The notes under the pieces were generated by a model, which saw only the letters and a list, made by a program, of their open reading frames with translations, ran no database searches and was not told where the DNA came from. Below, piece by piece: positions 11,300 through 11,485 of a stretch of DNA of 16,712 bases (position 1 is the stretch's first letter; the number at the start of each line of letters is the position of its first letter). The DNA comes from Escherichia coli (GTDB taxonomy: Bacteria > Pseudomonadota > Gammaproteobacteria > Enterobacterales > Enterobacteriaceae). Both the position numbers and the translations under genes were made by a program. Where the stretch lies: NCBI RefSeq assembly GCF_003334315.1, contig NZ_QOWR01000074.1; one strand, 5' to 3'.

Positions 11300-11485
11300 G
11301 ATGCGCACGGGTAAAACGTGCCATTAATGTCGGATGCGGCGTGAACGCCTTATCCGACCTACGTTCGGCACCCGTAGGCCGGATAAGATGCGCCAGCATC
11401 GCATCCGGCAATGCGCACAAGGTAACAAATGTGCCATTCATGTCAGATGCGGCGTGAACGCCTTATCTGACCTACGTTCGACACC
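11300..11485. repeat. BIME: cluster of three REP units in alternating orientation, with an approximately 70-bp tandemly duplicated unit
   Basis: REP units at 11329-11362 (gtcggatgcggcgtgaacgccttatccgacctac), 11374-11409 (inverted) and 11442-11475. The flanking segments cgcac..gtgccatt.atgtc are also repeated. Confidence 0.85.

What the first reader, a model, noticed from the sequence alone, without database searches (positions are those of the whole stretch)
11300..11485. BIME between speB and loiP built from a duplicated ~70-bp unit
Three REP units in alternating orientation are present, and the first and third carry similar flanks (cgcac..gtgccatt.atgtc...cctacgttcg), indicating a local tandem duplication of a REP-containing unit. 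Such elements can bind gyrase or IHF, stabilise upstream mRNA and act as recombination hotspots.
Basis: seen in the sequence. Interest (0 to 1): 0.2.

Follow-up and report, generated by a model that had tools for sequence, protein, structure and literature searches.

The report
Known REP/BIME tandem array, speB-loiP
The whole 205-bp gap between the convergent E. coli genes speB and loiP is filled by an ordinary array of REP hairpins (a BIME) built from about 1.8 copies of a 113-bp unit, and its copy number varies between strains, as is already known for this class of repeat.

Summary
The window matches E. coli K-12 exactly at this locus. The 205-bp speB-loiP spacer (11289-11493) contains three REPs in alternating orientation: Y (11328-11362, -), a Z2-type REP (11374-11410, +) and Y (11441-11475, -). 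The two Y REPs share flanks well beyond the REP core: 66 nt at 88% identity ungapped, about 95 nt with one 3-nt indel. Flank-only alignment beats 20000 shuffles on the left and all but 9 on the right.

The true period is 113 bp, not about 70: Y, an 11-nt tail-to-tail linker, Z2, and a 30-nt head-to-head linker. Other E. coli strains carry 47-, 90-, 142-, 203/205-, 316/318- and 429-bp alleles, mostly steps of 113. About 15% carry a 7.6-kb D-glucosaminate island here and no REPs.

The same array sits at this locus in E. albertii, E. whittamii and Escherichia sp. E1V33, and first and last units are orthologous across species. The founding duplication therefore predates these species, while later gains and losses are recent.

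There is no IHF site and no intrinsic terminator. Published data place a Rho termination region about 176 nt beyond the array. This is a textbook BIME-2-like array: already known, low interest.

The parts
11289..11493 (.). The whole BIME array. It fills the entire spacer between the speB stop (TAA, 11286-11288) and the loiP stop (11494-11496, - strand).
   Evidence: Both strands fold far better than shuffles as RNA (z -4.65 and -4.83).
11289..11300 (+). Degenerate left-edge fragment of a Z-type REP (GCACCAGATGCG). The speB stop region, GTAAGC.CC.GAT, resembles the GTAGGCCGGAT head. The fragment is 92% complementary to 11396-11408.
   Evidence: inverted repeat I2. Comparison with the 47-bp allele and with E. 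whittamii, where this edge reads GCG(C/T)CGGATAAGATGCG.
11301..11327 (.). Head-to-head linker, copy 1 (ATGCGCACGGGTAAAACGTGCCATTAA, 27 nt). It forms its own small hairpin, GCAC...GTGC.
11328..11362 (-). Y-type REP no. 1. On the - strand it reads GTAGGTCGGATAAGGCGTTCACGCCGCATCCGACA, matching 33 of 35 positions of the published Y.
   Evidence: compared with Y in Table 1 of PMC2817692.
11363..11373 (.). Tail-to-tail short linker, copy 1 (GTTCGGCACCC, 11 nt).
   Evidence: It shares the GGCAC core with linkers of the reference BIME-2 arrays.
11374..11410 (+). Z2-type REP (GTAGGCCGGATAAGATGCGCCAGCATCGCATCCGGCA, 37 nt). It matches 32 of 37 positions of the REP325 Z2 with no indels.
11411..11440 (.). 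Head-to-head linker, copy 2 (ATGCGCACAAGGTAACAAATGTGCCATTCA, 30 nt). It is specific to this locus.
   Evidence: the 35-mer occurs in 4030 of 5426 genomes at only 1-4 places per genome (median 1).
11441..11475 (-). Y-type REP no. 2. It differs from no. 1 only by a compensatory stem pair: G11333/C11355 becomes A11446/T11468.
   Evidence: core1 versus core2.
11476..11493 (.). Tail-to-tail linker, copy 2, followed by the degenerate start of a further Z REP (GTTCGACACCACCAGGCT). It is truncated at the loiP stop codon.
11314..11379 (+). Direct-repeat copy A of the duplicated stretch.
   Evidence: family D1.
11427..11492 (+). Direct-repeat copy B (88% identical to A, 113 nt downstream).
   Evidence: family D1.
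11669..11669 (+). Peak of a published Rho termination region for transcripts leaving speB. It is at K-12 3082496 (- strand), antisense to loiP, about 176 nt past the array.
   Evidence: Supplementary file 2 of PMC7815308: Rho score 3.32, p = 1.0e-6. Coordinates were mapped.

Best explanation
This is a BIME-2-type array of REP elements (palindromic units) occupying the whole 3' spacer between the convergent genes speB and loiP.

Shown:
- Structure. The array is about 1.8 copies of a 113-bp unit: Y REP, 11-nt tail-to-tail linker, Z2-type REP, 30-nt head-to-head linker. It begins and ends in degenerate Z fragments that abut the two stop codons.
- Origin of the shared flanks. The first and third REPs share flanks because they are paralogous copies of this unit.
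- Age. The founding duplication is older than the split of E. coli from E. albertii.
- Later change. The array has since gained and lost units in register, giving 90-, 203/205-, 316/318- and 429-bp alleles. It has occasionally lost sequence out of register (142-bp allele) and has collapsed to a single hairpin (47-bp allele).

Inferred:
- Mechanism of gain and loss. Either unequal recombination or replication slippage between the repeated REPs, or cleavage and strand transfer by the REP-associated transposase RayT (TnpA-REP). The two CC|TAC sites on the + strand, at 11359|11360 and 11472|11473, are exactly 113 nt apart.
- Function. The spacer has no intrinsic terminator. Transcripts from speB and loiP therefore run into the array and are terminated by Rho further on. 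The stable REP hairpins then act as 3'-exonuclease barriers that set the mature 3' ends. As double-stranded DNA, the array probably offers a gyrase site that absorbs positive supercoils between the converging genes.
For: Identity:
- The three REPs match the published Y and Z2 sequences.
- The genes are speB and loiP.

Duplication:
- The repeat is 66 nt at 88% identity with spacing 113, and extends with one indel.
- Flank-only significance is 0/20000 (left) and 9/20000 (right).
- The linker 35-mer is confined to this locus.

Register of gain and loss:
- Spacers of 47, 90, 203/205, 318 and 429 bp, plus 142 and 316 bp.
- Tandem Repeats Finder reports period 113, 3.5 copies, 95% matches in L004.
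- The 90-bp allele is a chimera of a CFT073-type first unit (left) and last unit (right), with the crossover inside Y.

Age:
- The same array lies between speB and loiP in E. albertii, E. whittamii and Escherichia sp. E1V33.
- In the unit identity matrix, K12_u1 is 92%, 86% and 81% identical to the first units of the other species, and K12_u2 is 93-94% identical to their last units. K12_u1 versus K12_u2 is only 72%.
- Units 2 and 3 of AVS0285 and THO-003 are 99% identical, which points to recent amplification.

Function:
- No terminator-like site lies in the spacer.
- Both strands fold with z about -4.7.
- A Rho termination region sits just beyond the array on the speB strand (PMC7815308).
- REP hairpins are proposed as protective 3' ends of Rho-terminated mRNAs (PMC6061677).
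- BIME-2 binds gyrase with higher affinity than BIME-1 (PMC1475751).
- TnpA-REP cleaves at CC|TAC and recombines BIMEs in vitro (PMC3333891).
- The only two differences between the two Y cores form a compensatory stem pair.
Against: - The functional part is not tested at this locus.
- About 15% of complete E. coli genomes (797 of 5426 have split flanks) have no REP here at all, and about 7% keep only one degenerate hairpin. No particular copy number is therefore required.
- No Term-seq 3' end inside the array was found in the supplementary files held for PMC7815308. The Rho score there uses 800-nt windows, so its position is coarse.
- The linkers differ in length from two reference BIME-2 arrays: 11 and 30 nt here, against 17 and 12 nt. 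Strict BIME-2 versus 'atypical BIME' typing is therefore unresolved.
- The data do not separate RayT from recombination or slippage as the mechanism.
Confidence: 0.88

Rival explanations
1. The shared flanks are generic BIME extra-PU motifs. On this view two Y REPs arrived independently, each with consensus flanks, and there was no local duplication.
For: BIME linkers do contain recurrent short motifs. A GGCAC/GTGCC core appears in the linkers here and in those of REP325 and the rayT BIMEs.
Against: The 35-nt head-to-head linker occurs only 1-4 times per genome (median 1), and the number of places tracks array length. Flanks of Y REPs at REP325 and rayT score negative against these flanks. Strain alleles step by 113 bp.
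Confidence: 0.03
2. The array is selfish or neutral DNA with no host function. It persists because REPs are amplified by RayT or recombination and are harmless between two convergent stop codons.
For: Copy number ranges from 0 to 7 REPs among healthy strains. About 15% of genomes have replaced the array with an island and about 7% have collapsed it. RayT recombines BIMEs in vitro (PMC3333891).
Against: The locus has been occupied since before E. coli and E. albertii diverged, and positional orthology is kept. The Y stems change by compensatory pairs. No alternative terminator or 3' hairpin exists in the K-12 spacer. The island allele has its own hairpin directly after the speB stop.
Confidence: 0.3
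3. The spacer encodes a product: a small protein (ORFs 11296-11457 and 11334-11501, + strand) or a dedicated small RNA like the naRNAs of REP325.
For: ORFs of 53 and 55 aa are listed. REP325 units yield HU-binding naRNAs (PMC4550694). The region folds strongly.
Against: The 113-bp period is not a multiple of 3. Alleles of 47-429 bp, and complete absence in island strains, destroy any reading frame. There is no Rfam match. No promoter-like site lies in the spacer. The linkers differ from those of REP325.
Confidence: 0.04
4. It is a BIME-1 (RIP/RIB) element that works by binding IHF.
Against: No WATCAANNNNTTR match with up to 1 mismatch lies in 11289-11493. The long linker is head-to-head. The Z REP is the 37-nt Z2 type. 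The element is tandemly repeated and length-polymorphic, whereas BIME-1 is single-copy and either present or absent (PMC3333891; PMC1187871).
Confidence: 0.02

Closest known systems
BIME-2 arrays of E. coli, for example REP325 between yjdM and yjdN, and the BIME-2 arrays flanking rayT (yafM)
   Same: Y and Z2 REPs alternate in inverted orientation. They are separated by one tail-to-tail and one head-to-head linker and are tandemly repeated. Copies within a locus are well conserved, and copy number varies between strains.
   Different: The period is 113 bp, against 100-101 bp. The tail-to-tail linker is 11 nt against 17, and the head-to-head linker is 30 nt against 12 and forms its own small hairpin. 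The Z stem reads CCGGAT rather than CCTGAT or CATGAT. K-12 holds only 1.8 units.
BIME-1 (RIP/RIB elements: Y-L-Z1 with an IHF site)
   Same: Both pair a Y REP with an inverted partner REP in an extragenic 3' region.
   Different: There is no IHF consensus. The partner REP is the 37-nt Z2 type. The element is tandemly amplified and length-polymorphic instead of being a single copy that is present or absent.
'Atypical BIMEs' (chimeric combinations of Y, Z1, Z2, L, S, s, l, r)
   Same: They occur in multiple copies and have variable linkers (PMC3333891). The unusual linker lengths here would fit this catch-all class.
   Different: The REP composition here is plain Y plus Z2, as in BIME-2.
REP 3' hairpins as mRNA stabilisers and ends of Rho-terminated transcripts (malE-malF REPs, from my own knowledge; Dar and Sorek 2018, PMC6061677)
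   Same: Stable hairpins lie downstream of a stop codon, there is no intrinsic terminator, and a Rho termination region lies further downstream.
   Different: No direct 3'-end or half-life measurement for speB or loiP was found.

Membership tests
REP / palindromic unit (PU) of E. coli | A 30-40 nt imperfect palindrome with a conserved GTAG head | tested here: met
   Three copies are present. Y matches 33 of 35 positions of the published Y. The two Y copies differ from each other at only two positions. Z matches 32 of 37 positions of the REP325 Z2, at the same length. The hairpin arms are reported (I3, I4, I5).
REP / palindromic unit (PU) of E. coli | Extragenic and highly repeated in the genome | tested here: met
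   The REPs lie between two stop codons. The 501-nt query finds 3-23 places per E. coli genome, median 13.
BIME-2 | Y and Z2 REPs alternating in inverted orientation | tested here: met
   The order is Y(-), Z2-type(+), Y(-). Longer alleles continue Y-Z-Y-Z-Y....
BIME-2 | Canonical linkers: S between REP tails; s, l or r between REP heads | tested here: inconclusive
   The architecture matches, but the lengths are 11 and 30 nt against 17 and 12 nt in REP325 and the rayT BIMEs. Only a GGCAC core is shared. The papers defining the motifs are not held.
BIME-2 | Tandem copies that are conserved within a locus, with length polymorphism between strains | tested here: met
   Spacers are 47, 90, 142, 203/205, 316/318 and 429 bp. 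L004 has period 113 at 95% matches. This matches the descriptions in PMC3333891 and PMC1187871.
BIME-2 | High-affinity binding and cleavage by DNA gyrase | not testable with these tools
   This is known only from the literature on the family (PMC1475751).
BIME-1 (RIP/RIB) | An L linker carrying an IHF site between Y and Z1; single copy | tested here: not met
   No IHF consensus with up to 1 mismatch lies in 11289-11493. The Z REP is the 37-nt type. The element is tandem and polymorphic.
Substrate of the REP-associated transposase RayT (TnpA-REP) | A REP with a 5' GTAG and a stem mismatch, plus an inverted REP on the same strand carrying a CC|TAC cleavage site | tested here: met
   On the + strand the Z REP (GTAGG..., 11374) is flanked by Y inverted REPs with GACC|TACG at 11359|11360 and 11472|11473. 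This fits the type II site consensus in PMC3333891. These are sequence features only; cleavage was not tested.

The most novel reading that the evidence does not exclude
The locus-specific 30-nt head-to-head linker forms its own small hairpin and has been kept at this locus from E. albertii to E. coli. It could be a functional third module rather than filler. On this reading, copy-number alleles (0-7 REPs) tune speB (polyamine synthesis) or loiP expression through 3'-end protection, Rho read-through or gyrase recruitment, and the array acts as a heritable expression 'dial' between two convergent genes.
Probability: 0.07. Interest if true: 0.3.

Novelty: already known. Interest (0 to 1): 0.1.

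Why it matters
It matters little beyond annotation. The case is a clean worked example of known BIME behaviour: tandem units conserved within a locus, gain and loss in register, and a founding duplication older than the species. It also shows that the speB-loiP spacer is a polymorphic site in E. coli, with at least seven allele classes including a 7.6-kb island. That could serve as a typing marker, or as a natural allele series for testing what REP copy number does to convergent transcription. Nothing here would surprise a specialist.

Tried and rejected
- Rfam gathering search of the whole window: no family matched.
- Tandem Repeats Finder on the window: nothing was called, because only about 1.8 copies are present. 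It does call the longer allele.
- Intrinsic terminator and promoter scan: none in the spacer.
- IHF consensus: none in the spacer, so a BIME-1/RIP reading is rejected.
- Coding reading of ORFs 11296-11457 and 11334-11501, and of the 338-aa ORF antisense to speB: rejected, because the period is not a multiple of 3 and the alleles differ in length.
- REP annotation in the K-12 record: the feature table returned only coding sequences, so the official REP number could not be confirmed.
- Original BIME papers (PMC1207841, PMC333889): not held. Supplements of PMC3333891 and PMC6061677: not held. Strict typing of the linker motifs, and a published mention of this exact locus, therefore could not be checked.
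- Literature search for loiP, speB and REP together: nothing specific.
- A first fuzzy-regex REP scan timed out and was replaced by blastn-short.
- Term-seq 3' ends inside the array: none in the supplementary files held.

Full report
**Locus and observation.** The window around the finding carries speA (8242-10230, +), speB (10368-11288, +), loiP (- strand, stop at 11494-11496) and tktA (12500-14521, +), all above the curated NCBIfam cut-offs. A 501-nt query across the site is 100% identical to K-12 derivatives such as MC4100, DH5alpha and S17-1. The gene order is that of MG1655 read on the reverse strand. The spacer between the two convergent stop codons is 11289-11493, 205 bp.

**The REPs.** The spacer holds three REPs. 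The reference Y and Z2 sequences are the ones printed in Table 1 of Nunvar et al. (PMC2817692).
- 11328-11362 is a Y REP on the - strand, matching 33 of 35 positions.
- 11374-11410 is a 37-nt Z2-type REP on the + strand. It matches 32 of 37 positions of the REP325 Z2 and has the same length.
- 11441-11475 is a second Y REP on the - strand.

Their hairpin arms are reported independently by the repeat finder (I3, I4, I5).

**Flank similarity.** The repeat finder gives a 66-nt direct repeat, 11314-11379 versus 11427-11492, at 88% identity with spacing 113. MAFFT extends it leftwards with one 3-nt indel to about 11298 versus 11408. I removed the 35-nt Y core and aligned only the flanks. The left flanks score 12, reached by 0 of 20000 shuffles. 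The right flanks score 6, reached by 9 of 20000. Flanks of Y REPs from two reference BIME-2 loci in K-12, REP325 and the rayT BIMEs, score negative against them. The 35-nt head-to-head linker alone is found in 4030 of 5426 complete E. coli genomes, at only 1-4 places per genome with a median of 1. It is therefore specific to this locus and is not a generic BIME motif.

**Anatomy.** The repeating unit is 113 bp, not about 70 bp. It consists of:
- a Y REP (35 nt);
- a tail-to-tail linker, GTTCGGCACCC (11 nt);
- a Z2-type REP (37 nt);
- a head-to-head linker, ATGCGCACAAGGTAACAAATGTGCCATTCA (30 nt; its first copy is 27 nt).

K-12 holds about 1.8 units. The left edge (11289-11300) is a degenerate Z fragment whose head overlaps the speB stop region. 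The right edge (11476-11493) is a second tail-to-tail linker plus the degenerate start of another Z REP, cut off at the loiP stop. The entire spacer is therefore BIME sequence. The two Y cores differ at only two positions, 11333 G versus 11446 A and 11355 C versus 11468 T. These two positions pair with each other in the stem, so the change is compensatory.

Fetching representative hits gave the following spacers:
- 47 bp: one degenerate hairpin (L005).
- 90 bp: one Y (L002).
- 142 bp: Z-Y, a 63-bp deletion out of register (L017).
- 203/205 bp: Y-Z-Y (CFT073 L001, O170 L011, and the window).
- 316/318 bp: five REPs (L018, L003).
- 429 bp: seven REPs (L004, L010).

Tandem Repeats Finder calls period 113, 3.5 copies and 95% matches in L004.

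I also ran two searches with anchor queries made only of the coding flanks. Reading 60 evenly spaced rows from each (120 in all) gave these counts:

| Allele | Rows out of 120 |
|---|---|
| 203/205 bp | 74 |
| split flanks | 18 |
| 429 bp | 10 |
| 47 bp | 9 |
| 90 bp | 7 |
| 142 bp | 1 |
| 316 bp | 1 |

In total 797 of 5426 genomes have split flanks. These frequencies come from a systematic sample, not a census. In the two split-flank genomes I fetched, a 7.6-kb D-glucosaminate island (dagR, four PTS genes, dgaE, dagF) lies between speB and loiP (L009), and L006 shows its loiP-side end. No REP was found at either junction of L009.

**Age and dynamics.** An exact-pattern scan of one genome per species found the linker plus Y head only in E. 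albertii, E. whittamii and Escherichia sp. E1V33. In each case it lies between speB and loiP, with spacers of 323, 246 and 205 bp. I aligned all units and compared them pairwise.
- First units are orthologous across species. K12_u1 is 92%, 86% and 81% identical to the first units of E1V33, E. whittamii and E. albertii.
- Last units are orthologous too. K12_u2 is 94% and 93% identical to the last units of E1V33 and E. albertii.
- K12_u1 and K12_u2 are only 72% identical to each other.

The founding duplication therefore predates these species. In contrast, units 2 and 3 of the 429-bp allele are 99% identical, which indicates recent amplification. The 90-bp allele is a chimera of a CFT073-type first unit on the left and last unit on the right, with the crossover inside Y. 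That is a clean 113-bp deletion. E. whittamii ends in a full Z REP followed by GTAATAAAACGC, the same tail as in the 47-bp allele. This suggests that the 47-bp form is either the ancestral single REP or a collapsed array.

**Mechanism.** Changes in register fit either unequal recombination or slippage between repeats, or the REP-associated transposase. Ton-Hoang et al. (PMC3333891) showed that TnpA-REP binds a REP with a GTAG head and cleaves inverted REPs at CC|TAC, and that it recombines BIMEs in vitro. Here the + strand has GACC|TACG at 11359|11360 and 11472|11473, exactly 113 nt apart, flanking the GTAG-headed Z REP. My data cannot separate the two routes.

**Function (inferred).**
- The spacer has no intrinsic-terminator-like site and no promoter-like site.
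- It has no IHF consensus and no Rfam match.
- Both strands fold much better than shuffles as RNA: -90.3 kcal/mol (z -4.65) and -96.1 kcal/mol (z -4.83).
- Adams et al. (PMC7815308, Supplementary file 2) list a Rho termination region peaking at K-12 3082496 on the - strand, antisense to loiP, with Rho score 3.32 and p = 1.0e-6. This maps to window 11669 on the speB strand, about 176 nt past the array.

These points fit the model that REP hairpins protect the 3' ends of transcripts terminated by Rho further downstream (PMC6061677). No 3' end inside the array was found in the held supplements. Gyrase binding is a property of the family (PMC1475751) and is plausible between convergent genes, but it was not tested. 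REP-free and single-hairpin alleles are common, so no particular copy number is essential. A neutral or selfish reading remains a real rival.

**Comparison with what is known.** Two reference BIME-2 arrays from K-12 have the same architecture: REP325 with period 100 and the rayT 3' BIME with period 101. Their tail-to-tail linkers are 17 nt and their head-to-head linkers 12 nt. The array here has the Y plus Z2 composition, tandem copies and length polymorphism of BIME-2, but different linker lengths. It is therefore either BIME-2 or, on a strict reading of the motifs, 'atypical'. It fails the BIME-1 test. The published literature already states that tandem BIME copies at a locus are well conserved and that their number varies between strains (PMC3333891; PMC1187871).

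**Verdict.** This is an ordinary, already-known kind of element, and interest is low.

Noticed in passing
L009 12201-19830 (E. coli NN5); also L006 (O91 RM7190): In 797 of 5426 complete E. coli genomes the speB and loiP flanks lie far apart. In the two cases fetched, a 7.6-kb D-glucosaminate utilisation island (dagR, PTS IIA-IID, dgaE, dagF) lies next to loiP; L009 shows it filling the whole speB-loiP gap. In L009 neither junction contains a REP.
   Followed up: partly
L006 2446-2500 (dagF-loiP spacer of the island allele): A hairpin, GTTACCGACCTACAA-TTATG-TTGTAGATCGGTA, lies next to the loiP stop. Its arms resemble the tail of the Y REP at this locus (CCGACCTAC / GTAG). It may be a relic of the BIME or a coincidence.
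   Followed up: no
window 10231-10367, compared with L003 707-1718: K-12 lacks a 732-bp gene (243-aa predicted lipoprotein) that lies between speA and speB in O145:H28, the 429-bp-allele strains, NN5 and O170:H18. The K-12 spacer matches only the two ends of the longer region (97.5% and 98.7%).
   Followed up: partly
window 10299-10343: A G+C-rich hairpin followed by a T run lies just upstream of speB. A published Term-seq 3' end at K-12 3083827 (- strand), 30 nt upstream of speB, maps to window 10338. This could be a terminator or attenuator between speA and speB.
   Followed up: partly
window 6228-6251: A truncated Y REP (tgccggatgcggcgtgaacgcc, lacking its second arm) sits beside the hairpin at about 6262-6287 downstream of metK. 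It is a solitary half-REP.
   Followed up: no
L015 (E. whittamii) spacer, last 50 nt; L005 (E. coli strain 142) 440-486: The E. whittamii array ends in a full Z REP followed by GTAATAAAACGC. The 47-bp E. coli allele has the same tail after its single hairpin. The 47-bp form may therefore be the ancestral single REP or a complete collapse of the array.
   Followed up: partly
(genome-contig scan): The E. coli species representative was not among the three hits, although K-12 itself matches the search pattern at 11431-11456. The representative genome presumably carries another allele.
   Followed up: no
window 10425-11441 (- strand): A 338-aa ORF antisense to speB starts inside the BIME. It is almost certainly spurious, an open frame opposite a G+C-rich gene.
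   Followed up: no
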